Part shown: positions 256 through 64,000 of the stretch, piece after piece | Position numbering within the stretch: the first letter of the stretch is position 1 | How the letters are laid out: every line of letters starts with the position of its first letter | From: Elusimicrobiota bacterium | GTDB taxonomy: Bacteria > Elusimicrobiota > Elusimicrobia > F11 | Direction of reading: 5' to 3' | NCBI GenBank assembly: GCA_003140895.1 | Contig: PLLH01000118.1 | Span: 11,494 to 75,493, forward strand | DNA: 64,000 nucleotides | Program-made: the position numbers and the translations under genes | The notes under the pieces: model-generated | Seen by the model: the letters and a program-made list of their open reading frames with translations, nothing else | Told to the model about the DNA's origin: nothing | Database searches by the model: none

Positions 256-1290
256 TCAAGCATTGGCAACCAGCCTCTTCAAAACTTTTCGGATATCAAT
301 TTTGGCGGGGCAGGCGCTGATGCAGCGGCCGCAACCGGTGCAGGCATACACCTTGAGCACTTTGGGGAAGAAGTCAAACTTCTTTTCAAAACGGTTCCGA
401 AGCCGCATCCATAATCTTTTCCGGGGGTTCGCTCCGCCGGCCACCCGAGCGTAATCTTTAATCATGCAGGAATCCCATACGCGAAGGCGGGCCATCTTTT
501 TATCATCTTTCTGATCGTAGAGAAAGAAACAGTGGCAGGTGGGACAAATATTGGTGCAGGCTCCGCACTCAACACAGGTCTTGGCTTCTTCTTCCCAAAT
601 TTTGGAGGCAAAGTTCCGTTCGATGATTCCTTGAAACTTATCCTCGGTGGGAACCTGAAATTTTTTGAGGTTCTCTTCAACGGCCCGGGTGGTTTTGGCG
701 CGCTGCTCTTCCTTGGCCCGCAACTCGCTTTCGGCGGCATTTTTAAATAAGGAAGGATATTTTTCTAAAAGCGCTTTCCCTTTCTCCGACCCTTCTTCGA
801 CCACGTAACCTCCGGGAACGGTGGAGAGGTTCAAGTCAAAATCCCGATGGGGATAGGGTTTAATTCCAAGGGCGATGCAAAAGCAGGTGTCGATGGCGCA
901 GGTGCAATCGGCGCCAATAATTAGATTTTTCTCCCGGTTGTGGATATAAAAAGGATCTTCGAGACCGTTATTTTTAAAAACGAAATCCTGAATTTGAAAC
1001 CCTTTCAGGTCGCAGGCCTTAACCCCCACGATGGCGTACGGTTTGTGATTTATTTTGGGCGGTTCGGCGGAAAAATTCTCGGCCACGAATTCTCTGGCGC
1101 GAGAGAAAAAAGCTTTGAGCGGTTCGAAGGGCCGGACTTCTCCGACGACAGGGTGGTCATTGGCATTAACGAATTTTTTGAAGAACCGCTGAGAACCGTT
1201 TTTAACGGGGAAGAAAACGTCGAAGTCAAAGGACAACTTGTCCAGAAAGCCGGTGAAATCGGCATCCTTAAGAATAAAACTTTTTCCCAC
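256..1290 (-). CDS. 4Fe-4S dicluster protein, anaerobic sulfite reductase subunit A / sulfhydrogenase beta (AsrA/HydB)-like.
   Basis: 344 aa with two CxxCxxCxxxCP ferredoxin motifs (CVECGACTNICPTC and CTGCGRCISACP). GTG start at 1290 is preceded by AGGAG. Gene is tightly coupled to the downstream FAD-subunit gene. Confidence 0.6.
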   Translation of the reverse strand: MGKSFILKDADFTGFLDKLSFDFDVFFPVKNGSQRFFKKFVNANDHPVVGEVRPFEPLKAFFSRAREFVAENFSAEPPKINHKPYAIVGVKACDLKGFQIQDFVFKNNGLEDPFYIHNREKNLIIGADCTCAIDTCFCIALGIKPYPHRDFDLNLSTVPGGYVVEEGSEKGKALLEKYPSLFKNAAESELRAKEEQRAKTTRAVEENLKKFQVPTEDKFQGIIERNFASKIWEEEAKTCVECGACTNICPTCHCFFLYDQKDDKKMARLRVWDSCMIKDYARVAGGANPRKRLWMRLRNRFEKKFDFFPKVLKVYACTGCGRCISACPAKIDIRKVLKRLVANA

Positions 1291-1361
1291 CCTGATTCTC
1301 CTTTAGGCGGTCAACTATTTAATTTAGGATTTGACGCTGGATTGTTTAGGAATGCACGATG

Positions 1362-1389
1362 TTTATACAAATTTTCGCAATAGCGTCAA
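1362..1389 (-). promoter_or_regulatory. Candidate sigma70-type promoter for the Fe-S/FAD oxidoreductase pair.
   Basis: Minus-strand TTGACG (reverse complement of 1384..1389), a 16-nt spacer, then TATAAA (reverse complement of 1362..1367). It sits about 70 nt upstream of the GTG start in the 129-bp gap after the giant gene. Confidence 0.3.
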
Positions 1390-1419
1390 AAGTTTTCCAT
1401 CTTTTGGAAAAAGGAAAGG

Positions 1420-4400: not shown

Positions 4401-7400
4401 CAGCGTAGCCGCTAAAGCCTGGGAGAAAGCCACCGAATTTCCCCATGTGCCCAAAGGACAAAGCCCAGCGACCCTCTTTGCCGGCGAGTTCAGTTTGAAG
4501 CAGGGCCACCATGCGTTTGTCCTCCTCTAGGTTAAAGGAGGCGAGGAGTTCAGCCAATTCAATCCGCGCGGGTTTGCTTCTGGCCCCCTGGCCCTGATCG
4601 GACACGACGATTCGCCCCCCCGGTTTCATCAGCGCGGTCAAAACCCCGACGTCCGCCGGAGTCAACCCGATCGGATTCAATTTGCTCCTTGTTTCAAGAT
4701 GAAGGGTCCCGACGCTCCCCGGTTGAATCAGCGTTGGAAGCTGCGCTATGGGGCCAAAGTGAACCTTGACCTTGTCTTCAACGTCAATGACCAGGGCCGC
4801 TTTTTTAAGAAACCGCGCCCATTCCGGTTTGGTGGTAACAAAAACGACTTTGCGGGAACCCTTTTTGATTTCAGGCAAAGTGAAGAGGCCATGGAAGTTT
4901 GAACCGATGTCCAGATAAAGAGAGGCGGAGTTCCCCGGATTTTCGGCGTCATGAAGAAAAGGAGGAGTCTCCGCGGCATCCCACAATTTGTTCATATCTC
5001 GCCGGAGAAGGAGCGCGTCGCTCGTGGCGCGGTAATCCAACAGTTTGTTGGCGAAGGCCGGGTCGCTTTCGGCCCTGGAAAGAATGGCGGGAAAAACGCT
5101 CGGAATTTTGATATCGGGAGTGGATACCTTCGACACCCTTCCCTTCGTGGCCGCTTTTGCGGCGGCCCGAATTCGCGCCTGAAAAACGGTCTTGGCGTAC
5201 TTTTCAGAGAGCTCCGGTATCGATTCGAGAAGAGAAACGAAGAGATCTGAATAATTATGATCGGGGAAACGCAAGCTGAGATAATAATATTGGCTGGCCA
5301 CATCGGCGAAAGAATATCTCGTGCCAGAAGAGATCCCGCGGAGATCTTCTTCCGGGTCGGAGCGCCTTTCCATGAATTGCCTTTGTACTGATTTCCCCAT
5401 CATTGCCAGTTCGTGCTTGAAGTAGGCGTCTCTTTCTTGGGGGTCGGTGGGAATAGTGGAGGCCAACTCGTCCCATCCCTCCGGCTTTTCCAGGCAATCA
5501 AGAAAGACGTTGTATCGCCCGGCCAGAAACAGAACCAAATTCACCAAGGACTGAATGGTTTCCTTGTCCCTTTTCTTTGGAAAAAGAATGACAGTTTGCA
5601 CCCAATCCAACGCGTCATCCTCGAGAATGATTTTTTCCTCTTGAAGGAGTTTTCCTATTTCGTTCCCGATGTTTTCTGCCCATTGGGGCGGATTTCCTTT
5701 GATCTTTTTTGAAATTTCTTTGAGTTGATTCTTAAACTGAGGGAAATCGCCTTGGGCGCCGTCAATTTGGCGTTTGAATTCTTTAAGTGATAAAGAATTT
5801 TTCTCCGCGGAGTTGCTGTCGCTCAACCCCGGCAAGGCAACAGTCGCCCCCAGCATCAAAATTGACCCAATCCACAGACCCAGAAGCGGACTCATCCAGG
5901 TGATTCCGGCCCACGAAAAGAGGCCCATGGCCACGGTGAGTTCGTTCAACGCAAATCCGTTCCGTGAGCCGGGCTTGTTGGGTCGTTCCGATCTCATTGC
6001 CTTCGATTTATTAGCGTTAGCAAGATCGATACGCGACACCATGGGATAGACGCTCGTCTCAACCCCATCAATCGTTTTCTTTTTCGCATGGGGAGGCTGA
6101 GAAGCGTGCTGGAAACCTTCAGAGAGAAAGAACGGGAGATTTTCAATGGATCTCTCCGGGACGGCAAGGATGATTTTTTCATTATTTACATACCGGGCGG
6201 AGTTCTTAACGTTCTCCATCAGGCGGTGGCCCACGCCCAAGCGTCGGTAGTCCGGGTGAACGCCAATTTCCGCTATGGATTCTTTCCCCTCTCCATATCT
6301 AAACGCCACGGCCCCGATGATGTGTCCGGCAATCGTAGCGACCCGGGTCTCGATCTGGGCGTCATGAGCGGGGGAAAAGACGTCTCTTCCGTTGAACCAG
6401 GGACGATCGCTGCTGAACTCATCCCAGAGTATATCGGCCATATCTGATCCATTTGTTTCCATCATCGGTCTTATATGTAAAAAATCCTGGATCAATTTTT
6501 TACGAAAAGCGGGGTAATCGACAATTTGGGATTGTGTTAACTCAAGCGTCTTGTCGAGCAGGATTTTAGAGATTGAGTCGGTGATAAGCTCTGCTCGTCT
6601 CGGGAGCGCGTCAACGACTTCATAAGCAAGGTCTTCAATCGGAAGACGGGCAATCCGCGCGCGATCCGAGGTTGCGTTAAAGAAGGAGCGGCGTTCATAC
6701 TCATTCGGTTTGGGTCCCCAAAGGGAGGAGCGCTCTTTTCTGATGCCTTGTTCGTCATAGGACCAGTTGGGATGTTCTTTGAAAAATACCAGGCGCTCCA
6801 GAATTTGCCTTAACGAATGCGGGTCGAGATCAGGCCGAAGCGCGAATTTCGTCAATAACGTGAGAGAATTGGGGGTATTTGAACGCGCCAACACGTCTTC
6901 AAAGATTTTCCTTTTCCCTTCCTTGTCGGCGGATCTGAAACGCGTCATTTCCGGCGGTTCGGAGTGCTTTGTTATAGGGGTTCTGTCGCTATAATTCATG
7001 TTGGAAGCGTCAAATATCAGATGAGAGATGAGTGCCCAATAAGGCGAAGCGCCGAGGTAGGGAAGAACGGGATAGAGAGCAAAAATAAAAAGGCGAACAA
7101 GATTGATCCAGCGAAGCGGCGGCCCGCGGATGTCGGAGTTGGGGTGAACCCACTCAAAAACGATGTGAGCGGCAAAGAGCGGAATGAGCCACGCGAGCGC
7201 GGCAAAGATTCCATAATTGTTTGTGAGCCACGCCGCCAATGCCCCTTCCCCCGCCGCCCAGATCAGCGAAGCGGCTGAGATGAGCGTATGGGTTGTTTCC
7301 TCGCTGAACTTGGCTGAGATCCAGTCGTGAATCGCCGGAAGCGTGAGGATGAAGTAGATGAAAGATAAAGGGACTGTCCCTTGAGAACCGGACCCATTGA

Positions 7401-10400
7401 CACGGCCAAGCGTTCGTGTTTGGACGATGGTGATGGTCCAATGGCCAGGCTGCTGCGGGTCGGCTGTTATGACGACTTCGATGTCCCGGGGATTTTTTGC
7501 TTGAGCCTCCGTTTGCTGGCCGATCTCGCAGAGGGACCGGATCAAGCGATTCGCGTCGGGAAGTTTTAAAAATTCCTTCGTAACGGGAATGGTTTTTGTG
7601 CCGCCGGTTTTGGAGAGAACCGAGCAGCGTTTTTTATTTCCCGGAGATTTTTCGACAATCCTGTTGCGCGTCTTATCCCAGATGATCTGGGTTGGAGATC
7701 CGGCAAATCGGTTGTCATCTCCAACCAGCGATTCCCCCAAGCCCTGAACGGCCTCGATCACCAGATGGCTGGGTTCATTCAGGGCCACATCCGAAGTATG
7801 GATGACACATGAAAAATCCGCCGGTAAAGACGGAACAAGCCAGGCCGCCGGGAAAACGGTCGTTTCATTAATCTGATACTTTCGTCTATTCTCGAAGGCC
7901 TCGTCGGTCCAAACCGAGGCCATCACCTTTTTAATGGCGGGCCAGAAGGCGCGCTTTCCAACAATGTGCGGGATGGTGAGATAAATCCCCGCTCCAACAC
8001 CCGGATATTTTTCAAGATCCTGGGCGTTTGTTGAATCTCGGACAAAAGTCCCTTTTTCCCATTGGGGGTGTCCTTCCGCCTGTTCTAGCGTGGTCCAAAA
8101 CCGAGGGGCCAGGGCGTTTGTGTTTAATCCCATTATAAGACGTCTTATTTTTTTAAGTGTTTGAGCAGCCTGGAGTCCTTCGGCTCCGGTGAGTGATTGA
8201 ATCAGTTTTTTGAAATCAGCATAAACTCCGTTTTTCTTTAGAAGGTGGATAAAGGTTCTATAGGGGATTCCCACTCCTTTGGCGAACTCCGGGTGAATAC
8301 GGGGATCGGACAAGCGAGGGGAGTGGAGGGAGAGACGATTGACTTGAGCCGGTTTGTTGCCGACGACATTGGGCCGGACCATCTCGGGATCATTTGGGGC
8401 GAGGAAATAGTTGTCGCCTTCCAGCGTGACGGAGGGCAGTTGAACTTTGATGCGCCGGGGTTTTGAAATCCGGGGAAGATCGGATTTCGTCGCTTTTCGA
8501 ATGGAGGCGGACCGGTTTGTCACAGTGAGCACAACCATCTGGCCGTCGAGAGACCTTAGTAATTCCGGCCCGGGCCAAACGGCGAGAGGAATATTGTCGG
8601 CCAGAGCGCGCGCCCGGGCGTGTGAGGTTTTTCCCTCATTGATAAAAGTGACGATGCCGTTAAAACGGCCTTCGATATCGACGTAAGACTTTGGCAGAAA
8701 CTTCATGGCCACGATAGAGTTGCTTGGAACCCTCTTCAGGGCGGAAAGGGAAGGCTCTTCCCCCTTTATAATTTGAAGCTTCCCAACTCCTGTACCGGCG
8801 AATTCGGGGGTTGGTTTTTTAACCCGCTGGGGAGCGTAAGAGGTCGGTTGAGCGAATATTTGTGAAGCCTGTTTCCCCTCTGGTTGGAGTTTTTTTGAGA
8901 GGGTATTGATCTCCTCCATTGTTTCCCGCAATTTTTCTGCATAATCATTTGGGCAGTAGCGTTTCTGTAAAAAATCAGCTATTTGTTCGCCGAGTTTCGT
9001 TAAGAGAGTTTCATCGTCTATGGCCGAAAGAATTATTTTGCTGTTGTTTGGGTTAAGATAGCCGAATAAACCGGCAATCCCGCTTAAATTGTACTGAACC
9101 AGGTAGGTGTCTCCCTTAAATGTCATGGGCGCGTTTCTATTTTTGAGAGCCAATCCGCGTTTCACAATTGCGCCGAACAAGTCCATCTCCATCTTCCCGG
9201 ACTGAACTGTCGATTCCCATCGTTCGTGATTTCCCTTGACGCAGGCGAGGATCGTCGCCGCCAGATCCGGGTACCAGTAATATATGGCCCGCAAGGTGTT
9301 GGCGGCCGAGTCAAAAACGGGGTGATTGAGAATAAAAATATCGCCGATGCCCTGGATACTGTTTCCTTCTTTTGAGAATGGGAGAGTAGACTCGAAAATG
9401 TGCTCAACTAATTCTTTCTCGTAGTCCGGCTTTGGCCATTTTGGATTCCAATGTTTCGGGCCGGTTTTTTTCGGATTTGAAAGGGAAAGCTCCGTGCGGC
9501 CAAGATTGGCGAGCAATAGAATTTGGAAGAACTTCCTTAGCGTTTGGAGAACAGCGGGCGGCGCGCGGCCTGGGTAGTTTTCCCCCCACTGAACCAGCCC
9601 GTCGTTGGTGTAGTGGGCGAGAACAAGAAGGACGCTGGCGATCGAAAGTGGAAGCCATGGGTTCCAATCAATGGCGAGGCCGAGAACGCTCAAAATCCCG
9701 AAGGAGATGAAAAACACCTTTCGGAGCTGGTTGACGGCCGCGGCGCGGTTCTGAGAAATTAACTTTAATTCCTCAGCACTTAGCGTTTCCCGCTCCCCTC
9801 GCGTCACGGTATGAAGCCAGACGAAAAATGATTTATTGACCCACAAGCCGAGGATGAACAGAGAAGTTGACGCGACGGCGACAAGAACAGATGACAGTAA
9901 CGATAGAGACGTGGGGCCATAAACGCCGAGTGACCAAAGTAACCCCGTAAGAGGAAGGCCCAGTGGGATCACGCCGAAGACAAGGGACTCCAGGCCCGCC
10001 AGATAGTGGCGGTAGGGCCCCCATTTGAACAGGCTGAGTTCGCTCTCCGGCATCGACGTTGCCGATAGTTGGGCCATGACCGCGGCATGCTTAGCCTTAG
10101 TGATGGCCTGCTGGCGGTCGGCGAAATTGTCGAGCAGCGCTTGTTCTCCCATGAGTGTTGGGTGGGCCGCCACTTCTTCAAGAAGGGTATCAATCGACTC
10201 TGGGATGGCCGTCTCCCTTAAAATCTCAAGGATGGATTCGCCCATGCTTTTGTCATCAATCATCTCAGCCATAAAGCCTATACCCTGTACACCAGCCGTA
10301 TTCCCAATATGGTGATCGACAAGAGGAGGCCTTTCAAAGACGACTTTCCCTGCTCTCACTCGTTCTGTGGCGTAGGACATCATTGCATTGAGATCGTCGG

Positions 10401-13400
10401 TGATTGCTTTGGCTCTGGGAAAAACCCGCTTTACGCCAGCCAAATCCCCTTTGATGGCGGATAAGCGTGTTTCCTTAATTATCTCGCGCAGTTCTCTCAA
10501 ATAGGGAATCATCAAAGAGAAGAATTCGGCAGAATCTGCGATTACCTCATCTGGAACCACTCGTTTTTGAGGAGTCTCATCTTCCTGGTTCCCCCAATGA
10601 GGAAAGATGGGTTGGTAAGCGTGGAATCGTTGGGTTTTAAGAAGACGGTTCAGAACCCGCGACGTGTTCATCCACAGCAGCCAGCGGTGAATAGATCCAA
10701 GCCCTTTATCTTTCTCTTCAATCTTATTCCAATCAATAAGAACGTCGAGCAGGGGAATGTTTTGGCCTCCGATCTCGATTTGAGCGTCCTTATGAATATC
10801 CTCCAAAAGCTTGCTTAGGATTTCGATCAGTTTTGTGTTGGGATCGACACCCGGGTCGCGGACATATCTGTTGTAGAGGGCTCGTCTTTCTGAGGGCGTC
10901 CACTGCGTCCAACCACTCTTGAAGTTCTGCCTTCGGTTTGGTGGGAAGAACAGAAGAAGGATGAAGTCGTTTATGATTTCTCGGATCCTAACCGTTATTG
11001 GATCGGCGGGATGATCCCCCTCAAGGACGTGTATGGTTTCTTCCAGGAGTGACTTGTGCCAGTACTTGTAGTGGGGATCGACGATGACGATCCTTTTCGC
11101 ATCGGGATCAATACCGAGCGCCTCAAGAACTTGCCGTGGGGAAACATCCAATCTTTGCGCGATCACTTGAAGGTGGTCGTTGGTCAAATGGGTTCCCCAC
11201 GCGTGGGTCTTTCTCTTCCAGCCCTCATTTTCAATCGGGGAGTGCGTCCCGCCCCCGACGAATTTGCCGATGTAGAAAAGTTGATCCTCGGATCCCCAAG
11301 GCATCAATAATCCGTAGGCTGGATCGCCGACCTGAGGAAAAAGAACGGCCACCCCTTCGTTTTGCAGAATCCGGTGGAGGTCCTCGGCTGGGGGTAATCC
11401 CGGGATGGGAGAGCTTAAGGAGATTTCCCTTTGTTGTCGCCGGCTTTTCTCATTTTTCTTGTCCAACAAAGTGTCCCCTTTAGAATCGGTACGGGTGCCT
11501 TTCACAACGTATGCGGGATCCTTGACGAGCACGGTCGCGATGGCCTGCTCAAACCCTGTTCTCCGGGCCAGTACCCCCCCGATTTCATAGGCTTTCTTGT
11601 GTTTTTCAGGATCCCTATTTAATAACTCTAAAACCACGTTTGCTAAATACTCACCGTATTCATAACTAAAACCGGGTTCCAATTTAAACCGCCCGGTGAA
11701 CCTCGAAAACCAGCTTTCGTGCCGCTTGGCCAACTTTCGAAACCCCTTCTCCCAGGAGGAAGGCGGAAATTCAGCGATGATTTCACGGACGGTCTTAGCA
11801 CTTGATCCGCCATAGTGGCTGGTTGATATCCCCAATTCAGCGGCTCGTATGGTTCGAAAATAACTGGCCGCAAAAGCGTTCGAGCGGTCTCCCATGGCTA
11901 GGATTGGAAATACAACGTGGGTGAGCTCATGGAAAATATTCGCACGCAAGGAGGACTCATCAGGGAACCGCCACTTGAAAACCAATACTTTTTTACTGAA
12001 GTTCAGCTTGACTCCGTTGGCGCCCCGAAGGGTTTGAACCGTCGCTTTAGCTCCAAACAACAAAGACCAAAAACCAATCATCTTCAAAATCGGGATGAAA
12101 TCCCAGCCGATCAAAGAAAACGGCAGAAAAACGATGGCGAGCGGAACAAACCAGAATAGAAACTGAGGCACAATTAATCTTCGAAAGGCTTGCCACGGAC
12201 TTGAAGCGACTTCAACTGTCCTTCTTAACGGTTTTTCTAATCTCCTCCCTTTTGAACTTTCGGCATCCCCAGGAAAACCCGTCACCTCAATAAAGTGGCC
12301 CACTTCCTCCCGGACTATTCTTTCGTCGGCGGAAATTTGGGACGCCGGGTTCCTTGCGGCCATAACGTGAGCGTCAAATGGCATGTGGAAAGGAAGAGCA
12401 AAGTAGGGTGAGAATCCGAAACGAGGGAAAGCAATATAGAGAGCAAAAATAAAAAGGCGAACGAGATTGATCCATCGGAGCGGCGGCCCGCGGATGTCGG
12501 AGTTGGGGTGAACCCACTCAAAAACGATATGAGCGGCAAAGAGCGGCATGAGCCACGCGAGCGCGGCAAAGATTCCATAATTGTTTGTGAGCCACGCCGC
12601 CAATGCCCCTTCCCCCGCCGCCCAGATCAGCGAAGCGGTTGAGATGAGCGTATGGGTTGTTTCCTCGCTGAATTTGGCTGAGATCCAGTCGTGAATCGAC
12701 GGAAGCGTGAGGATAAGGTAGATGAAAGACAAGGGAGTTGTCCCTTGAGAACCTGACCCATTTATAGACTTGATACGTCTTTCGACTCGCTCCTTGGTTC
12801 CCAGCTTTGTCACGATACCCTTGGATTGTTGATTAATCGTGTTTTCAGGAGGGTGTGAAATATTCTGGCGGAAGGAATTAATTTCCAATATGCGGCTCCG
12901 AATGCGTCTAAACAATTCATCTTTCGAATCGCTTGAAGATAAGGTTTGATGAAGATCGGATCTTAACCGTTCCAGAGCCGGGCCATATTCGTCCTTGCGC
13001 AGTCCGCCACGGGCAATATACCTGGCTCTCATATCATGGAATCGGTTCATCTCCCCCATGAGTCTTTCGATAAAGAGATACCTTTCTACGGGCTTGACAT
13101 AGGGTCGTCTAAAGAATTCCAGCATAGACTCCACTTTATCTTGGACTGTTTCATGGACAAGTTTATGGAACGAGATTAAGATTTCTCTTCCAGATGCGGG
13201 ATGGATAAGCAGAGGTTTTCTGGTTTGGATAAGTGTTCTTTCTTGAACCGTAATCTGAAGATCATTCGTTGCGCTTATTAACTTCTGCTTCAGCCTTTCT
13301 ATGAACTGAAGTTCCAAATCACTGTCCAGAAAATGCGAAAATTGAATATCCAAGTCATCCACCGCTGAGAATGGGACGTAACCCTCTTCATCCTGGAGGT

Positions 13401-15687
13401 AAAATGCGCTCCCATAGGCTTGCGCCAAAACCCGTTGGCCATCGGGAGCCACCATCTCATCGGCGGTTTCCTGAATCATTTTCCGAAGAAACCCGAAATT
13501 GATTTCGTAATTTTTGAATCCCTTCTGTCTCGCAAAAACGGGATTCTTTATCTCAGCCAAGGAAAACCCCGAGAAACTATCGTTATAGAATAGTGACGCG
13601 GAGGTCTCTCTCCCCGATATCCGGCCCGAGCCGGGTCCGACATCGGGTTGGGAAGAATCCCTCATCATCGCCATCCCCACCACAAACGGCGCCATTGAAA
13701 GGAACGCGACTATTTCCTTTGCGTGGATCTTCATCCAATCCCAACCGAGGGCCATCCATTCGGGGTAAAGCAGGCTGACGAGGGCGCTTGTTGTGAGGAG
13801 GGCTGAGAGAGTGAGAGGGGTGCGGATGCTCTTCATCCCCCATTTTTCATCAATGGCAATCGTTAAAGATTTGGATGTGCGATTTGAGAGGGCCGTGATG
13901 TGGATAAGACCCGCTTTGGCGAGGTGGATTGTTGCGCGGGAGGCGATCCTCATTCTTCTTAAAACTTTCTCAACGTATTGTTGCGCGAACGGAATGCCGA
14001 TGACTTGTTTCATGACGCCTCGAGCGGCGAAGAAAAGGCCGGCTTTGGCGAACGCTGGGTTGGACACGGGCTCTTGGGCCAGGAAGAGTTTTTCCCCTTC
14101 GAAGAGCTTTTCAAGCGGGGTTTTCTCCTGAGTGAAGACGCTCAGATAGGTTGCCCCCGTTGATGAGTCCACTTTGGTCACTTTGGGAACAACGGTGATG
14201 GTGGTGAATCCGGCGTCCTGAGCCAGACGGTTGATCCCGCTTGAGTGATAGCCGCCGGTTACAAGAACCGCCACGTTGGTTTTATTCTCCCCCATGGTCC
14301 TTAAAAGGTTATTCGCCATCAAGGTGTCGCGCGCGTCGGCTTCGGAGTAAAATTTTTCAAACGGCGAAAAATTTGGTTGATGGTCTATGGACTGATACTC
14401 TTTCCACTCTTCTTTCGTGAGTCCAAAGTCGAGAAGTTTTCCAACAAGATACAGCCGCCGAGACTCTGCGACATCTTTTTTCTCGTCGTCCGTTCGGATC
14501 AACGACGCGTAGGTCGCGTCTTCTAAGTTGCTGATTTCTTGATGTAGCTTCTCCGCATCAATGGAGTCGGAGAGAAGGACATACTGGAGGTAATCGAACA
14601 TCGCTTTGTAATACGAAAGGTTGACGCCTTGTTTCTCGCACATGGTTTTTAAGGCTTGGTAGAAATCAGCGTGGTTGAGTTGGCCGAGACGGAACGCCAA
14701 CGTCAAATTAACGAGGGGTTGCGTTTGGTCGGCCGGCAGCTTCCTGAGGAGTTCCTCCAAAAGTAGAGAACGCTCCCGTTCAACGCGCGCGAAATCCAGC
14801 GACTTTTCAAGTTGGAGGGCGCGAAGGAAGTTGTTGAAATTGTGCCCGGGCACTTTTTTGTTATTGAACGAATTCAATAACTGCGCGTAGTCACCAAGTG
14901 AGAGGGTCCCCCTTTGGTACGCCTGGACGTTTCGGTCAAACGCTTTTAAATCGGGATTAAACCGGGTTTCTTTTTCTGCCGCCAGCGTTTGTTCAAGTTT
15001 TGCCAGTTTTTCTTTTTGGGTGGCGGTCTGCGGCGCGGATTCGCGGACGGCGTTGACGTTCGCTCCGTAGCGCGCGGCATCATCAATCCCGACGTACGGT
15101 GGCGGGGTGAGTTCGGAGACGAGAGCCGTATGAATCGGGCCTGAAATGGCGTTTTCGGCAAGCAGATGATCGGCTACCTCGCGGATGGTTTCTTTGTGAG
15201 GAAATTCTCTGAGGAGCGAAAGATCGAGCGGGGCGAAGGCTCCTTCGAGAGCCACCAGGTCCACCCGTTGTTTATTGATGAGCGTTTGGATTACGGCGGC
15301 GATGTTTTTCTGGGCTTCCCCATTCATGTGGATGTCTTGAACATGAATGATGATTTTCTGCTGAGAGCGGGACGCGGGCCTTGAAACAGAACGGATGCTC
15401 CCAAATTGAAGCGGGATGGCGCTTAATACATTTTTCAGGGAGAGGTCTTGCACATCTTTTGCCCATTTGTTGAAGTGGACATTCGCGGATAACGTGTCGG
15501 CAAAATTTGTTGGGAGCGAGGAATGGGTGAATCCCGCCACGGCGGGTAAACTCGCCAATTGGACGGATTTTTTTCGTTCCGTCCAGAAATCGGTTTCTGC
15601 TTTGTAGGCGAAGAGACAATTGGTGGAGAGAAGGGCCATGGCCAAGGCCATTGTGAGGCATCTTGAAAAGAAAGACGTATGCTTCAA
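1420..15687 (-). CDS. Giant (4755 aa) mosaic multidomain membrane protein. In order: signal peptide; Tiki/TraB/ChaN-like domain; transmembrane helices; repeated TM module; HExxH motif; phosphohistidine swivel plus PPDK_N nucleotide-binding (dikinase) module; second copy of the TM module; GNAT acetyltransferase domain; further TM clusters; second Tiki/TraB-like domain.
   Basis: A continuous 14,268-nt ORF without stops. TTG start at 15687 follows GGGAGA. N-terminus MKHTSFFSRCLTMALAMALLSTNCLFA is a signal peptide. Motifs seen in the translation: IIIHVQDIHMNGEAQ ... VLVTGGYHSSGINRL (ChaN/TraB-like, residues ~110-510); IFHELTHVVF (HExxH, residue 1253); IVTFINEGKTSHARARALADNIPLAVW (PEP-utilizer swivel, His ~2356); VVGNKPAQVNRL ... 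SVWTDEAFENRRKY ... VIEAVQGLGESLVGDD (PPDK_N, ~2440-2680); IIGAVAFRYGEGKESIAEIGVHPDYRRLGVGHRLM (GNAT, ~3115-3160); ALVVVRGGAHIFELEGL (second TraB-like GGxH motif, ~4330). There are multiple hydrophobic stretches. Confidence 0.8.
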   Translation of the reverse strand: MKHTSFFSRCLTMALAMALLSTNCLFAYKAETDFWTERKKSVQLASLPAVAGFTHSSLPTNFADTLSANVHFNKWAKDVQDLSLKNVLSAIPLQFGSIRSVSRPASRSQQKIIIHVQDIHMNGEAQKNIAAVIQTLINKQRVDLVALEGAFAPLDLSLLREFPHKETIREVADHLLAENAISGPIHTALVSELTPPPYVGIDDAARYGANVNAVRESAPQTATQKEKLAKLEQTLAAEKETRFNPDLKAFDRNVQAYQRGTLSLGDYAQLLNSFNNKKVPGHNFNNFLRALQLEKSLDFARVERERSLLLEELLRKLPADQTQPLVNLTLAFRLGQLNHADFYQALKTMCEKQGVNLSYYKAMFDYLQYVLLSDSIDAEKLHQEISNLEDATYASLIRTDDEKKDVAESRRLYLVGKLLDFGLTKEEWKEYQSIDHQPNFSPFEKFYSEADARDTLMANNLLRTMGENKTNVAVLVTGGYHSSGINRLAQDAGFTTITVVPKVTKVDSSTGATYLSVFTQEKTPLEKLFEGEKLFLAQEPVSNPAFAKAGLFFAARGVMKQVIGIPFAQQYVEKVLRRMRIASRATIHLAKAGLIHITALSNRTSKSLTIAIDEKWGMKSIRTPLTLSALLTTSALVSLLYPEWMALGWDWMKIHAKEIVAFLSMAPFVVGMAMMRDSSQPDVGPGSGRISGRETSASLFYNDSFSGFSLAEIKNPVFARQKGFKNYEINFGFLRKMIQETADEMVAPDGQRVLAQAYGSAFYLQDEEGYVPFSAVDDLDIQFSHFLDSDLELQFIERLKQKLISATNDLQITVQERTLIQTRKPLLIHPASGREILISFHKLVHETVQDKVESMLEFFRRPYVKPVERYLFIERLMGEMNRFHDMRARYIARGGLRKDEYGPALERLRSDLHQTLSSSDSKDELFRRIRSRILEINSFRQNISHPPENTINQQSKGIVTKLGTKERVERRIKSINGSGSQGTTPLSFIYLILTLPSIHDWISAKFSEETTHTLISTASLIWAAGEGALAAWLTNNYGIFAALAWLMPLFAAHIVFEWVHPNSDIRGPPLRWINLVRLFIFALYIAFPRFGFSPYFALPFHMPFDAHVMAARNPASQISADERIVREEVGHFIEVTGFPGDAESSKGRRLEKPLRRTVEVASSPWQAFRRLIVPQFLFWFVPLAIVFLPFSLIGWDFIPILKMIGFWSLLFGAKATVQTLRGANGVKLNFSKKVLVFKWRFPDESSLRANIFHELTHVVFPILAMGDRSNAFAASYFRTIRAAELGISTSHYGGSSAKTVREIIAEFPPSSWEKGFRKLAKRHESWFSRFTGRFKLEPGFSYEYGEYLANVVLELLNRDPEKHKKAYEIGGVLARRTGFEQAIATVLVKDPAYVVKGTRTDSKGDTLLDKKNEKSRRQQREISLSSPIPGLPPAEDLHRILQNEGVAVLFPQVGDPAYGLLMPWGSEDQLFYIGKFVGGGTHSPIENEGWKRKTHAWGTHLTNDHLQVIAQRLDVSPRQVLEALGIDPDAKRIVIVDPHYKYWHKSLLEETIHVLEGDHPADPITVRIREIINDFILLLFFPPNRRQNFKSGWTQWTPSERRALYNRYVRDPGVDPNTKLIEILSKLLEDIHKDAQIEIGGQNIPLLDVLIDWNKIEEKDKGLGSIHRWLLWMNTSRVLNRLLKTQRFHAYQPIFPHWGNQEDETPQKRVVPDEVIADSAEFFSLMIPYLRELREIIKETRLSAIKGDLAGVKRVFPRAKAITDDLNAMMSYATERVRAGKVVFERPPLVDHHIGNTAGVQGIGFMAEMIDDKSMGESILEILRETAIPESIDTLLEEVAAHPTLMGEQALLDNFADRQQAITKAKHAAVMAQLSATSMPESELSLFKWGPYRHYLAGLESLVFGVIPLGLPLTGLLWSLGVYGPTSLSLLSSVLVAVASTSLFILGLWVNKSFFVWLHTVTRGERETLSAEELKLISQNRAAAVNQLRKVFFISFGILSVLGLAIDWNPWLPLSIASVLLVLAHYTNDGLVQWGENYPGRAPPAVLQTLRKFFQILLLANLGRTELSLSNPKKTGPKHWNPKWPKPDYEKELVEHIFESTLPFSKEGNSIQGIGDIFILNHPVFDSAANTLRAIYYWYPDLAATILACVKGNHERWESTVQSGKMEMDLFGAIVKRGLALKNRNAPMTFKGDTYLVQYNLSGIAGLFGYLNPNNSKIILSAIDDETLLTKLGEQIADFLQKRYCPNDYAEKLRETMEEINTLSKKLQPEGKQASQIFAQPTSYAPQRVKKPTPEFAGTGVGKLQIIKGEEPSLSALKRVPSNSIVAMKFLPKSYVDIEGRFNGIVTFINEGKTSHARARALADNIPLAVWPGPELLRSLDGQMVVLTVTNRSASIRKATKSDLPRISKPRRIKVQLPSVTLEGDNYFLAPNDPEMVRPNVVGNKPAQVNRLSLHSPRLSDPRIHPEFAKGVGIPYRTFIHLLKKNGVYADFKKLIQSLTGAEGLQAAQTLKKIRRLIMGLNTNALAPRFWTTLEQAEGHPQWEKGTFVRDSTNAQDLEKYPGVGAGIYLTIPHIVGKRAFWPAIKKVMASVWTDEAFENRRKYQINETTVFPAAWLVPSLPADFSCVIHTSDVALNEPSHLVIEAVQGLGESLVGDDNRFAGSPTQIIWDKTRNRIVEKSPGNKKRCSVLSKTGGTKTIPVTKEFLKLPDANRLIRSLCEIGQQTEAQAKNPRDIEVVITADPQQPGHWTITIVQTRTLGRVNGSGSQGTVPLSFIYFILTLPAIHDWISAKFSEETTHTLISAASLIWAAGEGALAAWLTNNYGIFAALAWLIPLFAAHIVFEWVHPNSDIRGPPLRWINLVRLFIFALYPVLPYLGASPYWALISHLIFDASNMNYSDRTPITKHSEPPEMTRFRSADKEGKRKIFEDVLARSNTPNSLTLLTKFALRPDLDPHSLRQILERLVFFKEHPNWSYDEQGIRKERSSLWGPKPNEYERRSFFNATSDRARIARLPIEDLAYEVVDALPRRAELITDSISKILLDKTLELTQSQIVDYPAFRKKLIQDFLHIRPMMETNGSDMADILWDEFSSDRPWFNGRDVFSPAHDAQIETRVATIAGHIIGAVAFRYGEGKESIAEIGVHPDYRRLGVGHRLMENVKNSARYVNNEKIILAVPERSIENLPFFLSEGFQHASQPPHAKKKTIDGVETSVYPMVSRIDLANANKSKAMRSERPNKPGSRNGFALNELTVAMGLFSWAGITWMSPLLGLWIGSILMLGATVALPGLSDSNSAEKNSLSLKEFKRQIDGAQGDFPQFKNQLKEISKKIKGNPPQWAENIGNEIGKLLQEEKIILEDDALDWVQTVILFPKKRDKETIQSLVNLVLFLAGRYNVFLDCLEKPEGWDELASTIPTDPQERDAYFKHELAMMGKSVQRQFMERRSDPEEDLRGISSGTRYSFADVASQYYYLSLRFPDHNYSDLFVSLLESIPELSEKYAKTVFQARIRAAAKAATKGRVSKVSTPDIKIPSVFPAILSRAESDPAFANKLLDYRATSDALLLRRDMNKLWDAAETPPFLHDAENPGNSASLYLDIGSNFHGLFTLPEIKKGSRKVVFVTTKPEWARFLKKAALVIDVEDKVKVHFGPIAQLPTLIQPGSVGTLHLETRSKLNPIGLTPADVGVLTALMKPGGRIVVSDQGQGARSKPARIELAELLASFNLEEDKRMVALLQTELAGKEGRWALSFGHMGKFGGFLPGFSGYADRDKQIDADTLVVFTRPSETADSPADGAHLGGQTTKLLLLWATITGILAQGQNLWAQGRSMREIERSLNLGRGVGVAGNDLLPAFLLTLIISIPLCILGYLLLGVVISRYSHGKSLDRIYQKKDSFSFSATLLLIGYLATFLMVGTLSNSWMMGPINIATNILWFVTFVFFYFLYRFAKADYSLSWPVKTIVILSIVASAGLTNYFKQGWSPVSLASNFYASLVAVVTMGILLGLVLIYSIVSLRMGGKDVKEKRKRHNRQQKLTDEVDNFIQKAPHKKPGPRDGFTVFELTTAIALLSWPVITFLNPTLGFWIAGSVIFSIVIAILLKSLTYFIQNPQHDFIYYVLGPHGRKGDYDHMSSSVEEAIKDARKRGALSVAVLQESGGGPYNDFDRDMNVLGTRYRNNRESFRAEQSQSGLTDTEINALLNFAERWKDHAEFPDLIALLEDSNNASGMSAYVDWYNRTPNSAEPKNPLISRMNEHLKNISDIQTLEEIPTGDTVRFNFLSEIHYFLAIDHFRQGHLNQAMDEYASFSRDQAKMLELRAQALMNQIDDYKREHPSGALVVVRGGAHIFELEGLRDHGYRVAAYADQLPKDYNNPIHLAQSAALSGKGIEDKPALLTRAIIFACLGAVIIDHVNLSNHVLLLTGRLMDGRDLLTGKPLPGMSPFSMDDMRAIGDLLAQKGGPHLNYSEIDNLIIEWARHNHHWHSSYDKLFDPDWNASSSLPEIPLVRVETRPSVSRALYWVYNPLARSLSILYSKLLSGINIVWGILTPVGSFLLVKPLLSCMNRIGAVNNSNRKVPMSPTQIVLESLLKGTPINLGLGETLRTDPLRKNSGTLIFVDPSLEAHLEELVKSLDPHTPTTLVAQTNALAERLRGLVNPAFVSVVDGDQTGALQGGEWRLKTLETYFGENAVQFPIVARIIQAHGSMNIVSSQNAPAFNWNGLDSNSIFLQKETIYLLIDELLKALSARWAPDVQRSVDETSQTLKAA
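7072..7398 (-). repeat. Copy 2 of the 327-bp intragenic direct repeat (residues 2764-2872). It lies exactly 5364 bp (1788 codons) from copy 1, in the same frame.
   Basis: Near-identical DNA and peptide to 12436..12762. The alternative-frame ORFs 7017..7214 and 12315..12578 (both beginning MESLPRSRGS...) mirror the repeat. Confidence 0.9.
12436..12762 (-). repeat. Copy 1 of a 327-bp intragenic direct repeat (about 95% nucleotide identity) encoding a ~109-aa multi-TM module. It corresponds to residues 976-1084 of the giant protein.
   Basis: The DNA string atagagagcaaaaataaaaaggcgaac...gtcccttgagaacc recurs at 7072. The encoded peptide NGSGSQGTTPLSFIYLILTLPSIHDWISAKFSEETTHTLIS...RWINLVRLFIFALY is nearly identical in both copies. 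Confidence 0.9.
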
Positions 15688-61957: not shown

Positions 61958-62548
61958 TTATCGGGGTGAGACAGGCTTAACGGTGACGATGGACCGGCCC
62001 TCGTTGGACACGCGTTTTGTGTTGGGGTCCGGGATCCGTTTGTCGTTCACGATAAACATGTATTCGTATGTCCCCGGTTTTAATTTGAGTGAGACGCCCC
62101 ACAGGTTGTTTTTCTTTTTGGTGAGCGGCTCCCTCGTCCAATTGTTGAAGCTTCCGACGATGAAGACCTGTTTGGCGGCTGAGTTGTGATAGGAGAACAA
62201 AATATTTCTCAATGAAGAAGACGTGTTGTGAGAGGCTTTTTCTTTCGGAGCCGGTTTCGAATGGGTTTTGGCCGGAGCCGGTTCTTCGAGCGGCGCCGGC
62301 TCTTCGAGCCGCGCCGGTTCTGATGTTTGGGCGCCGGCCGGCATGCGATCTGTTTTCATCGGGGAGGCCGCGGACGAATCGGATGATGACGGAGTGACTG
62401 GCAAGGGAGCTGGAGCGGCTGGTTCAACTTGTTTGAGCGGAACATCCACAATGGATTTTTCTTGAAGGGCCATGAAGAGATAACTGGCGGATCCCACCGC
62501 CACAACGAGGGATATCAGCGTGACTCCTCCCCAAAATCGTTTGTTCAT
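61958..62548 (-). CDS. Membrane-anchored protein with a CBM48/AMPK-beta glycogen-binding-like domain.
   Basis: N-terminal TM helix and a Pro/Glu-rich linker containing LEEPAP x2 (an 18-bp DNA repeat). C-terminal VFIVGSFNNWTREPLTKKKNNLWGVSLKLKPGTYEYMFIVNDKRIPDP matches the CBM48/E-set glycogen-binding fold. Confidence 0.55.
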   Translation of the reverse strand: MNKRFWGGVTLISLVVAVGSASYLFMALQEKSIVDVPLKQVEPAAPAPLPVTPSSSDSSAASPMKTDRMPAGAQTSEPARLEEPAPLEEPAPAKTHSKPAPKEKASHNTSSSLRNILFSYHNSAAKQVFIVGSFNNWTREPLTKKKNNLWGVSLKLKPGTYEYMFIVNDKRIPDPNTKRVSNEGRSIVTVKPVSPR

Positions 62549-63348
62549 AGCGGCATAACGGGCGGTTTAGGATTTACGGCGCCCAGCGCTGGCGACCCCG
62601 GCGTTGCCGATCCCGGCGTCGCCGGTTTCGGGGCCATAATAATCGTCGCATCGGGGTTCGCGCGAGGTCCCGGTTCCTTCCCTTTCAATCGGGCCATTTC
62701 CTTCTCTAAAATAATGACATGCTCGGCCAGTTTGAGCAGCTTTTGAGCGAAATCACCCATGTCTCTCGGCATTTCCTTGAGTTCCCCCGCCTCCGCTTTT
62801 TTCGTTGCGTTGCTGGTGTTCTCAAAGCTGTCCTCCAGGTCGGACACTTTTTTGTTCAAATTTTTAATCTGAGTGATGACGATATCCAGCTGGCCCTGTA
62901 TGGCCGCTTCTCCGGGGGCGATGACCATGGTTTTGTCGGAACGGTCCTCTTTTTTGACGCTCGGAGAGATGGGTGGCGTTGGGAGCGGATGGTCTTCCAC
63001 CACCGGATTGATTTGTTGGGGTTCTTCTTTTATGGGGATGGCGATCGGGGCGGGCGCGGGCGTTTCATCAGCGGGAATTTCCCCACTTGGAATTGGTTCC
63101 TCCACGTCCCCATGCGGAACCGTGAAGGCATCCGCGCTTTTTCGCGGCGAGGCGATCCATTTGATGAGACCAAAGAAAAACGCCAGAAAACTCAGAATGA
63201 AAAGGATGGTTCCGATCAACAGGAGTGGATCGGAGAGGATTTGATCGATGTTGATCATTCCAATGAGCCGGTTTAAAAGCGTCACAGTGTGAACCTCTTT
63301 TGGATAATTTTTGGATGAATCAGCGGGTGATGGGAATCGAACCCACAT
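62545..63348 (-). CDS. Hypothetical membrane protein with a coiled-coil segment.
   Basis: 267 aa with a TM helix (LLLIGTILFILSFLAFFFGLIKW). 4-nt overlap with the downstream gene. Confidence 0.45.
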   Translation of the reverse strand: MWVRFPSPADSSKNYPKEVHTVTLLNRLIGMINIDQILSDPLLLIGTILFILSFLAFFFGLIKWIASPRKSADAFTVPHGDVEEPIPSGEIPADETPAPAPIAIPIKEEPQQINPVVEDHPLPTPPISPSVKKEDRSDKTMVIAPGEAAIQGQLDIVITQIKNLNKKVSDLEDSFENTSNATKKAEAGELKEMPRDMGDFAQKLLKLAEHVIILEKEMARLKGKEPGPRANPDATIIMAPKPATPGSATPGSPALGAVNPKPPVMPL

Positions 63349-63392
63349 CTAAAGCTTGGGAAGCTTTCATTCTACCACTGAACTACACCCGC
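63322..63392 (-). tRNA. tRNA-Gly (anticodon CCC).
   Basis: Minus-strand GCGGGTGTAGTTCAGTGGTAGAATGAAAGCTTCCCAAGCTTTAGATGTGGGTTCGATTCCCATCACCCGCT folds into a cloverleaf. Acceptor GCGGGTG/CACCCGC, D-arm GTTC..GAAT, anticodon stem AAAGC/GCTTT with loop TTCCCAA, T-arm GTGGG-TTCGATT-CCCAT, discriminator U. 71 nt, CCA not encoded. Confidence 0.8.
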
Positions 63393-63397
63393 GAAAA

Positions 63398-64000
63398 TTA
63401 AACGCTAACAGCAACTTTCCCCATATTCTTTATACTTTTAAAATTGCCTTTGGTAGTATTTTTGGTAGTATTTAATTTGGGACTGTACCCATACATACTT
63501 CCAATGACCGCTCCCGCCACTTGAAGGTCATTTTGCGTAGGATTGACATAGATTTGGGTCATTTTAATGTCGCTATGACCCAAATACTTGGATACCGTTC
63601 CGATATCAATGCCTTTTTGAAGCATCATCCTCGCTCCTGTCCTTCTTAAGTCTCGAAATTGAAACCAGGGAATTTTCGATTTTTTCCTGGCTTCATTAAA
63701 CAGCTTCGAAAAATTCGTGAAATCAAATATTACATCACCCTGAGCTGTTTCAATAAGTTTTCGCATTGTTTCATTTATGGGAACTTGATACAACTTTTTA
63801 ACCTTGGACTGTGTCCCCCCAAAGACGTTGGCAGCCTCGTAAATGTTTTTCTTTGTCAAGATTTTGAGGGTTTTCCAGCGCAAGGTTGTGTTTACGGCCG
63901 CTATGCAGATTCGCCGTACGGATTCAGGTGCGACATTCAAAAACTTTTGGAATTCTTCAGGGGCCACAATCCGTGTTCGTGAATAGGGGCGTTCGTCGGC
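63398..64000 (-). mobile_element. Tyrosine recombinase (phage-type integrase). Only the C-terminal catalytic domain is in the window; the reading frame stays open to the window end.
   Basis: FRDLRRTGARMMLQKGIDIGTVSKYLGHSDIKMTQIYV shows the box II / LGH...Y catalytic tyrosine pattern. The frame is open upstream of the GTG at 63967, so the N-terminus lies beyond 64000. The stop is 5 bp from the tRNA-Gly 5' end. Confidence 0.75.

What the first reader, a model, noticed from the sequence alone, without database searches (positions are those of the whole stretch)
63322..64000. tRNA-Gly(CCC) abutted by a truncated-at-window-edge tyrosine integrase: likely integrative element boundary
The integrase stop is 5 bp from the tRNA 5' end. 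The integrase catalytic domain carries the LGH...Y tyrosine; its N-terminus lies beyond the window. tRNA plus integrase is the classic signature of a genomic island or prophage attachment site. The element could extend to the right of the window, or leftward over the TonB receptor, CBM48 and hypothetical genes.
Basis: partly seen in the sequence, partly recalled or inferred. Interest (0 to 1): 0.55.

Follow-up and report, generated by a model that had tools for sequence, protein, structure and literature searches.

The report
Conjugative element joined to tRNA-Gly 5′ end
The window ends at the junction between a bacterial chromosome (probably Elusimicrobiota) and an integrated conjugative element; its integrase belongs to a small, uncharacterised group that sits on the rarely used 5′ side of tRNA genes instead of the usual 3′ side.

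Summary
tRNA-Gly(CCC) lies at 63322-63392 (-). Five bases upstream on the same strand is the stop of a tyrosine integrase with all catalytic residues. The gene is cut only by the window edge and is a complete 361 aa in the source contig.

It is an integrative-element boundary, and the direction is resolved. Near-identical public contigs (99.9%) continue rightward into xis-like HTH_17, ORF6N and a type IV secretion operon (VirB2/3/4/6/8-like/10), so this is an integrative conjugative element (ICE). The 63 kb to the left is host housekeeping DNA with no tRNA-derived repeat.

The geometry is not the classic one, because the element abuts the tRNA's 5′ end. The three other loci with close integrase relatives (50-54% identity) and a downstream tRNA show the same geometry (Arg-GCG, Arg-CCT, Val-TAC). 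So does a sister ICE with a different integrase (Phe-GAA).

A circular 8.7-kb relative carries only tRNA-Glu positions 1-41 after its integrase, between repeated arm-type sites. That is an attP holding the tRNA 5′ half.

I infer that integration crosses over near the anticodon loop, with the element supplying the tRNA's 5′ half. The far end of this ICE was not retrievable, so this step is untested here. The reversed orientation is rare but known, so interest is moderate.

The parts
63322..63392 (-). tRNA-Gly(CCC), intact, 71 nt, no encoded CCA. It is the chromosome/element junction (attR-type). Inferred to be a hybrid whose 5' part (about positions 1-40) was supplied by the element.
   Evidence: ARAGORN; Rfam 72.6 bits. 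The hybrid nature is inferred from the attP of circular relative L017.
63393..63397 (-). 5-nt spacer (TTTTC on the minus strand) between the integrase stop and tRNA position 1. There is no room here for a separate promoter.
   Evidence: Sequence. The promoter scan finds nothing here.
63398..64000 (-). C-terminal 200 codons plus stop of a tyrosine integrase, cut by the window edge. The full gene is 361 aa, with Int_N (PF24624) plus the PF00589 catalytic domain. It is the terminal gene of the element, transcribed towards the tRNA.
   Evidence: PF00589 E 4.4e-15. Full-length P0023/P0001. Catalytic R, K, R, H, Y invariant. GC 41% against host 52.5%.
63449..63472 (-). Perfect tandem 12-mer (AATACTACCAAA x2 on the minus strand), 57-80 nt upstream of tRNA position 1, inside the integrase tail codons. 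Candidate arm-type integrase binding sites (P arm of the att site).
   Evidence: the repeat finder D4. Tandem 11-12-nt repeats of different sequence sit at a similar distance from the tRNA in L016, L015, L117 and L120. In L117 they lie outside the integrase ORF. In the circular L017 the equivalent motif recurs on both sides of the tRNA fragment.
62545..63285 (-). First host gene after the tRNA (246 aa, no Pfam hit). It marks the chromosomal side and is not part of the element.
   Evidence: Called gene in L001/L002. Host-like GC. Followed by CBM48, TonB receptor and polyamine genes.

Best explanation
Window 63322-64000 is the integrase-proximal junction of an integrative conjugative element (ICE). 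The element lies to the right of the window in a genome that is probably Elusimicrobiota.

Shown:
- The element's last genes, read towards the tRNA, are a type IV secretion operon, ORF6N, an HTH_17 excisionase-like gene and a 361-aa tyrosine integrase.
- The integrase stop is 5 nt from position 1 of tRNA-Gly(CCC).
- Host genes follow the tRNA's 3' end.

Inferred from relatives:
- This integrase group uses tRNA genes in the reversed orientation. The element's attP carries the 5' part of the tRNA (position 1 to just past the anticodon loop) directly after the integrase, flanked by arm-type repeats.
- Recombination with the chromosomal tRNA near the anticodon loop therefore leaves an intact hybrid tRNA next to the integrase, which is what the window shows.
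- It should also leave the displaced native 5' fragment, with the native promoter, at the far end of the element, which was not seen.
- The tRNA next to the integrase would then be transcribed from inside or through the integrase gene.
For: Element identity and direction:
- The window's last 12,043 nt are 99.99% identical to ENA contig L001, and L001 is 99.94% identical over 3,510 nt to L011.
- L011 carries TrbC/VirB2, TraL/VirB3, VirB4/TraC, TrbL/VirB6, VirB8-like, TrbI/VirB10, ORF6N, HTH_17 and Int, ending in the tRNA.
- A sister backbone, L120 (VirB4 84% aa), adds a coupling protein.
- The same int-tRNA junction occurs in four independent assemblies.
- The integrase is full length with an intact active site.
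- The left side is housekeeping DNA at host GC.

Reversed geometry recurs:
- Integrase stop followed by a same-strand tRNA 5' end is seen in L016 (54% identity, tRNA-Arg GCG, 10-nt gap) and L117 (52%, tRNA-Arg CCT, 99 nt).
- It is also seen in L015 (52%, tRNA-Val, with an integrase-tail remnant directly upstream) and L120 (tRNA-Phe, overlapping the integrase stop).
- Host genes follow the tRNA in each.
- In a background of 80 distant phage integrases, 5 of the 6 tRNA-adjacent cases are the classical convergent type.

attP evidence:
- L017 (integrase 50% identical) is a circular contig with a 115-nt terminal overlap.
- Its integrase is followed 18 nt later by tRNA-Glu(CTC) positions 1-41 only.
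- That fragment sits between exact 17-nt direct repeats at -86 and +110.

Other:
- Tandem repeats lie at a conserved distance upstream of the tRNA in all members.
- No copy of either tRNA half exists in the 63 kb to the left.
Against: - The far end of this particular ICE was never seen. Every contig stops within 11-12 kb, so no att repeat, no displaced 5' fragment and no empty site is documented for it.
- The 5'-half attP is shown only in a 50%-identical relative that targets another tRNA.
- 21.6 kb of the sister ICE L120 contain no tRNA-Phe repeat.
- No relaxase was identified. A coupling protein was seen only in the sister element.
- No convincing promoter for the tRNA was found (2 consensus sites against 1.3 expected, none adjacent).
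- More distant family members (P0009, P0010, P0014; 39-42% identity) have no adjacent tRNA.
Confidence: 0.7

Rival explanations
1. Classical orientation with a long identity block. The element integrated 3' of a tRNA-Gly copy at its far end, and its attP carries the whole tRNA (as in Streptomyces SLP1). The tRNA next to the integrase would then be the second, full-length repeat copy.
For: A complete tRNA rather than a fragment follows the integrase. Contigs in two samples break at or inside the tRNA: L002 starts at position 1 and L011 ends at position 55. A repeat could cause that.
Against: The circular relative L017 carries only positions 1-41 of its tRNA in attP. L002 runs from tRNA position 1 straight into host DNA without a break at the tRNA 3' end, and other assemblies span the junction. 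The identical 71-nt tRNA occurs in many other organisms, which alone can explain the assembly breaks.
Confidence: 0.12
2. The att site does not overlap the tRNA. Either the element inserted into an intergenic site just upstream of the tRNA, or the tRNA is cargo of the element and the true boundary lies a little to its left.
For: An 18-nt motif downstream of the tRNA (63297-63314) is 78% similar to the tandem-repeat region upstream (D1). The far end is unknown.
Against: The L017 attP contains a tRNA 5' half, so att sites of this group overlap tRNA genes. GC returns to host level just downstream of the tRNA. In L016 the tRNA-Arg is followed by a small gene and the host tmRNA. The downstream motif lacks the TACTACC core and is A/T-rich low-complexity sequence.
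Confidence: 0.07
3. The element is an immobile fossil: a junction left by an old integration whose ICE is no longer able to excise or transfer.
For: No relaxase or coupling protein was seen in the 11 kb available. Relatives do decay: in L117 the integrase is truncated by an IS3-family insertion, and L015 holds an integrase-tail remnant.
Against: The integrase is full length with all catalytic residues and differs by one residue between samples. The xis-like gene and an uninterrupted T4SS operon are present.
Confidence: 0.1
4. Assembly or binning chimera: a low-GC integrase contig mis-joined to the host contig at a tRNA shared between organisms.
For: The tRNA is 100% identical in at least 12 unrelated metagenome contigs. 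GC drops sharply at the junction.
Against: The identical junction appears in four independent assemblies from different samples. The ICE backbone beyond the xis-int module has host-like GC of 52.5%.
Confidence: 0.01

Closest known systems
Integrative elements that use the 5' part of a tRNA gene ('reversed target gene orientation', Zhao & Williams 2002 J Bacteriol 184:859; also some archaeal viruses and plasmids, as listed in PMC6563490)
   Same: The element abuts the tRNA 5' end. The attP of a relative carries the 5' portion of the tRNA. The element must therefore supply the upstream part, and expression, of the restored gene.
   Different: I could not read the 2002 paper, so the comparison rests on its citation in PMC6563490 and on my own recollection. 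Here the trait appears in several related bacterial integrases and in a sister ICE's unrelated integrase, across Gly, Arg, Arg, Val, Phe and Glu tRNAs, with a conjugative (T4SS) element. The integrase ORF ends within 5-10 nt of, or inside, the tRNA.
Classical tRNA-targeting ICEs and genomic islands (for example ICEclc at tRNA-Gly, P4-like islands) and phages whose common core holds the tRNA 3' half (PMC10865867; PMC7192596)
   Same: A tyrosine integrase at the element terminus, an adjacent xis-like gene, a tRNA gene as target, arm-type repeat candidates, and restoration of an intact tRNA.
   Different: The orientation is opposite. The element lies 5' of the tRNA, and no 3'-end repeat is found on the 3' side.
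P2 / HP1-type phage integrases (PDB 5c6k, 5dor, 1aih)
   Same: These are the best solved-structure and phage matches: 5c6k E 1.8e-10, HP1 integrase E 1.3e-6, and Klebsiella prophage integrases at 25% identity over 88% of the length.
   Different: Identity is only about 25%. No NCBIfam integrase model reaches its cut-off. The first His of the HxxR box is Arg in this subgroup. That 5c6k is the P2 integrase is from my memory; the tool calls it only 'Integrase'.
VirB/Trb- and TraC-type type IV secretion systems of conjugative elements
   Same: TrbC/VirB2, TraL/VirB3, VirB4/TraC, TrbL/VirB6 and TrbI/VirB10 occur in one operon.
   Different: All NCBIfam VirB4 and TraC models score far below cut-off. 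The operon also carries a PorV/PorQ-like outer-membrane protein with TPR. Relatives come almost only from Elusimicrobiota MAGs. The MPF class was not assigned.

Membership tests
Tyrosine recombinase / phage integrase (PF00589) | Catalytic-domain match above the curated threshold | tested here: met
   Window fragment E 4.4e-15, 56.3 bits against a cut-off of 27.1. Full-length protein also matches.
Tyrosine recombinase / phage integrase (PF00589) | Catalytic residues R...K...H/x-x-x-R...H/W...Y | tested here: met
   R202, K227, R280, H303 and Y312 are invariant in alignment A1. The first His of HxxR is Arg (R277) in the close subgroup. All lie within window codons.
Integrative conjugative element (ICE) | Site-specific integrase at the element terminus next to a chromosomal junction | tested here: met
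Integrative conjugative element (ICE) | Mating-pair-formation (type IV secretion) genes including a VirB4-family ATPase | tested here: met
   Seen in the 99.9%-identical contig L011, outside the window.
Integrative conjugative element (ICE) | Coupling protein and relaxase | tested here: inconclusive
   A coupling protein appears only in sister element L120. No relaxase was recognised in any available stretch. The far part of this ICE was not retrievable.
Integrative conjugative element (ICE) | Direct att repeats at both ends; excision to a circle; transfer | not testable with these tools
   All contigs end within about 11-12 kb of the tRNA. The source contig was not retrievable.
5'-side ('reversed orientation') tRNA-integrating elements | Element lies on the 5' side of the intact tRNA, host DNA on the 3' side | tested here: met
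   The same holds in L016, L117, L015 and L120.
5'-side ('reversed orientation') tRNA-integrating elements | attP carries the 5' portion of the tRNA gene | tested here: inconclusive
   Met in circular relative L017 (tRNA-Glu positions 1-41 between arm repeats). No attP form of this ICE is available.
5'-side ('reversed orientation') tRNA-integrating elements | Displaced 5' tRNA fragment with native promoter at the far junction | not testable with these tools
   The far end was not reached. It is absent from 21.6 kb of L120.
5'-side ('reversed orientation') tRNA-integrating elements | Element-supplied promoter for the restored tRNA | tested here: inconclusive
   The consensus scan gave 2 sites against 1.3 expected, none adjacent to the tRNA. 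The spacer is only 5 nt.
Classical 3'-end tRNA integration | Element 3' of the tRNA with a repeat of the tRNA 3' part at the other end | tested here: not met
   No match longer than 13 nt to any part of the tRNA in the 63 kb on its 3' side. That side is housekeeping DNA.

The most novel reading that the evidence does not exclude
A coherent group of bacterial integrases (Int_N plus catalytic domain, so far mostly from Elusimicrobiota-type metagenomes) may be specialised for the 5' halves of tRNA genes. Their ORFs end within a few bases of, or inside, the tRNA; in L120 the stop codon is tRNA U8-A9-G10. The host's restored tRNA would then be transcribed only as a read-through of the integrase gene. 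This would tie supply of a host tRNA to the element's integrase promoter, and RNase P cleavage to the integrase mRNA's 3' end. It would be a built-in regulatory or addiction link between the element and its host.
Probability: 0.2. Interest if true: 0.6.

Novelty: new member of a known kind. Interest (0 to 1): 0.4.

Why it matters
Island-finding tools and human readers usually look for the tRNA 3′ fragment as the second boundary. For this integrase group that search would probably fail or mis-place the island, because the expected repeat is the 5′ half.

The locus also gives a first outline of a conjugative-element family in Elusimicrobiota, a poorly sampled phylum. The family has interchangeable integration modules that target at least five different tRNAs.

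If the tRNA is really expressed from the integrase gene, it would be a clear case of a mobile element taking over expression of a host tRNA.

Tried and rejected
- **Species-representative genomes, scanned with the full integrase.** Only three distant partial hits came back; the source genome is absent.
- **Exact look-up of the window's own integrase (P0023).** Not on record, so the 77-kb source contig could not be extended.
- **Look-ups of the two host genes next to the tRNA, to find an empty site.** Only occupied or truncated contigs were returned.
- **JGI metagenomes, scanned with tRNA positions 1-36.** This gave 17 loci, none from this species and none with a related integrase. No empty site or far-end fragment was found. 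The same pattern in viral contigs gave 0 hits.
- **IMG/VR, searched with the family alignment.** Only generic integrases at 31% identity or less over full-length matches came back. I used them as a background for geometry.
- **Far end of sister ICE L120.** No tRNA-Phe repeat in 21.6 kb. There were also no tRNA repeats in L015, L016 or L117.
- **Promoter and terminator scan near the tRNA.** Nothing above chance. A TTTAAT box at -10..-5 is too close to position 1 to count as a promoter, so I did not annotate it.
- **Rfam on L017.** It does not report the half tRNA. I confirmed the fragment by completing it in silico.
- **Assembly-graph argument.** L002 starts at tRNA position 1 and L011 ends at position 55. 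I first read this as co-existing empty and occupied sites. I downgraded it because the identical tRNA is shared by many organisms.
- **GC shift as a marker of the whole element.** Rejected: only the xis-int module is low-GC (42%), while the T4SS part matches the host at 52.5%.
- **Papers.** Zhao & Williams 2002 and Williams 2002 are not held.

Full report
**1. The observation**

The window holds one tRNA, tRNA-Gly(CCC), at 63322..63392 on the minus strand (ARAGORN; Rfam 72.6 bits, full length). The minus-strand frame from 64000 to 63398 is open for 200 codons and ends in TAA. It matches the phage-integrase catalytic domain (PF00589, E 4.4e-15).

Five bases (63393-63397) separate the stop from tRNA position 1. 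Both genes are on the same strand, so the integrase faces the tRNA's 5′ end. In an alignment of 19 family members the catalytic Arg, Lys, Arg, His and Tyr are invariant, and all are encoded inside the window.

The gene is cut only by the window edge. A 361-aa protein with an identical C-terminal part, including the Ile that marks the window's allele, exists on an NCBI contig of 77,056 bp.

**2. What lies on each side**

Looking up the neighbouring CBM48 gene led to ENA contig L001. It is 99.99% identical to the last 12,043 nt of the window. Beyond the integrase it continues into an HTH_17 (excisionase-like) gene, an ORF6N gene and TrbI/VirB10.

A second contig, L011, is 99.94% identical to L001 over 3,510 nt. 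It extends 11 kb and carries:
- TrbC/VirB2, TraL/VirB3 and an 825-aa VirB4/TraC ATPase;
- TrbL/VirB6, a VirB8-like protein and TrbI/VirB10;
- a PorV/PorQ-like outer-membrane protein.

A sister element, L120 (VirB4 84% identical, backbone 74-78% identical in DNA), adds a coupling protein. The element is therefore an integrative conjugative element lying to the right of the window.

To the left are a 246-aa protein, CBM48, a TonB-dependent receptor, SAM decarboxylase, spermidine synthase, an Orn/Lys/Arg decarboxylase, DksA, leucyl aminopeptidase and MqnA-type genes. GC there is 52.5%. No match to any part of the tRNA exceeds 13 nt. The leftward alternative is rejected.

The best named relatives of the aminopeptidase are Elusimicrobia/Elusimicrobiota MAG proteins at 48-54% identity. 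The nearest non-self hit is only 58%. The host is probably a poorly sampled Elusimicrobiota lineage. VirB4 relatives are likewise mostly from Elusimicrobiota MAGs.

**3. The geometry is the unusual part**

Tyrosine-integrase elements normally recombine with the 3′ half of a tRNA gene and lie 3′ of the restored gene (PMC10865867; PMC7192596). Use of the 5′-distal region is described as 'considerably less frequent' (PMC6563490, citing Zhao & Williams 2002). Here the element lies 5′ of the tRNA. This is not a one-off:

| Locus | Integrase identity to this one | tRNA | Relation of integrase stop to tRNA 5′ end |
|---|---|---|---|
| L016 | 54% | Arg(GCG) | 10-nt gap |
| L117 | 52%, truncated by an IS3-family insertion | Arg(CCT) | 99-nt gap |
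| L015 | 52% | Val(TAC) | integrase-tail remnant directly upstream |
| L120 | 24% | Phe(GAA) | tRNA overlaps the integrase ORF; stop codon is tRNA positions 8-10 |

In each case mobile-element genes precede the integrase and host genes follow the tRNA.

As a rough background I took 80 distant phage integrases from IMG/VR. Six have an adjacent tRNA. Five of those are the classical convergent type. The single same-strand case, L041, shares the tandem-repeat architecture described below.

**4. Evidence for how it works**

L017 carries an integrase 50% identical to this one. It is a circular contig with a 115-nt terminal overlap and a unit length of 8,677 bp. Its integrase stop is followed 18 nt later by positions 1-41 of a tRNA-Glu(CTC): acceptor strand, D-arm, anticodon stem 5′ strand, loop and two more bases. 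After that the sequence is unrelated. ARAGORN calls a normal tRNA-Glu(ctc) when a generic complementary 3′ half is appended.

An exact 17-nt repeat, GGGGCGAAAATGGGGGC, lies 86 nt upstream and 110 nt downstream of the fragment. This is the layout expected of arm-type sites on both arms of an attP. So in this integrase group the element carries the tRNA's 5′ half, and the crossover is at or near the anticodon loop.

The window has a perfect tandem 12-mer (AATACTACCAAA x2, 63449-63472) 57-80 nt upstream of the tRNA. Tandem 11-12-nt repeats of different sequence sit at a similar distance in L016, L015, L117 and L120. In L117 they lie outside the integrase ORF, which argues that their position is set by the att site rather than by coding. 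I read them as the P-arm integrase sites.

From this I infer that the window's tRNA is a hybrid whose 5′ part came from the ICE. I also infer that the far junction holds the displaced native 5′ fragment. This last step is inference by homology. It is not shown for this element.

**5. Open points**

The source contig could not be fetched. The genome and metagenome scans found neither this species nor an empty site. The 21.6 kb of L120 hold no tRNA-Phe repeat. No relaxase was recognised.

No promoter-like site stands out near the tRNA. With only 5 nt between stop and tRNA, expression presumably starts inside or upstream of the integrase gene, but this is untested.

Only the xis-int module is low in GC (42.4%). 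The T4SS part is 52.5%, like the host. L120 carries a quite different integrase on a similar backbone. This suggests that integration modules are exchanged between these elements.

**6. Comparison and verdict**

The integrase's nearest solved or annotated relatives are the integrase of PDB 5c6k, HP1 integrase and prophage integrases, at about 25% identity. No NCBIfam integrase model reaches its cut-off. Only 22 proteins match at E ≤ 1e-10 in the large protein collection.

The element is a new member of known kinds: an ICE, tRNA-targeted, of the rare reversed-orientation type. The element lies to the right, and the repeat to look for is the tRNA 5′ half, not the 3′ end.

Interest is moderate. 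The boundary itself is ordinary. The recurrent 5′-side usage by a group of bacterial integrases, and the tight integrase-tRNA coupling, are worth a specialist's follow-up.

Noticed in passing
L120 20897-20969 (ENA ERZ1823576 HuN_farmland_Scaff1245684): In the sister ICE the integrase ORF runs 10 nt into tRNA-Phe(GAA). Its TAG stop codon is tRNA positions U8-A9-G10. RNase P processing of a co-transcript would therefore remove the integrase mRNA's stop codon.
   Followed up: partly
L033 about 878-1008 (OBEQ011042877.1): Directly upstream of an intact tRNA-Gly(CCC) lies a copy of tRNA positions 1-34 with a 20-nt GC palindrome (CCTGCCTGCCGGCAGGCAGG) inserted in the D-loop. Six nt later comes the full tRNA. 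It may be a scar of a 5'-side integration, or a small palindromic insertion. L035 has a similar palindrome upstream of its tRNA.
   Followed up: no
L016 2140-4529 (NCBI GCA_936419225.1, CAKYZE010000368.1): A tiny host segment (tRNA-Arg, a 143-aa gene, and tmRNA at 142.9 bits) is flanked by two mobile elements. This integrase family's element lies on the tRNA 5' side. A serine-recombinase gene overlaps the tmRNA 3' end on the other side.
   Followed up: partly
L011 9778-11128 versus 1-9742; L120 19770-20906: The xis-int module of the ICE has 42.4% GC, while its T4SS backbone has 52.5%, the same as the host. The sister ICE has a 24%-identical integrase on a 74-78%-identical backbone. Integration modules seem to be swapped between these elements.
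   Followed up: partly
L015 5826-5969 (JGI 3300020918 Ga0207107_1269): A 144-nt remnant of an integrase 3' tail lies directly upstream of tRNA-Val. It is 83% identical to the intact integrase 830 nt away and contains the tandem 12-mers. A BrnT toxin pair sits between the two. The origin of this arrangement is unclear.
   Followed up: partly
L117 8758-10744 (NCBI GCA_022709755.1): A family integrase is truncated at its N-terminus by an IS3-family insertion (rve, HTH_Tnp_1) but keeps the tandem repeats and the downstream tRNA-Arg(CCT). Two JGI contigs break at the same IS.
   Followed up: no
L041 about 10840-10998 (IMGVR_UViG_3300007987_001205): A distant (24%) integrase ORF in a viral-collection (IMG/VR) contig overlaps the 5' end of tRNA-Gly(GCC) by 21 nt. 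Three GGATAC repeats spaced 11-12 nt apart lie upstream. The same architecture may therefore extend well beyond the close family.
   Followed up: partly
window 63297-63314: An 18-nt motif just downstream of the tRNA (CTTTTGGATAATTTTTGG) is 78% similar to the tandem-repeat region upstream (63448-63465). It is probably A/T-rich chance similarity, but this was not excluded.
   Followed up: no
window 62545-63348: The mechanical 267-aa ORF overlaps the tRNA's 3' end. Public gene calls use GTG at 63285 (246 aa, no Pfam hit, N-terminal hydrophobic stretch).
   Followed up: partly
window 1420-15687 (-): A giant ORF of 4,755 aa, not examined.
   Followed up: no
L020-L036: The 71-nt tRNA-Gly(CCC) of the window is 100% identical in at least 12 metagenome contigs with unrelated flanks. 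Several contigs (L027, L032, and L002 from this species) start exactly at tRNA position 1.
   Followed up: partly
window 62560-62656 (+): Weak PreQ1-III riboswitch match (24 bits against a gathering score of 63, E 0.099) inside a coding region. Almost certainly chance.
   Followed up: no
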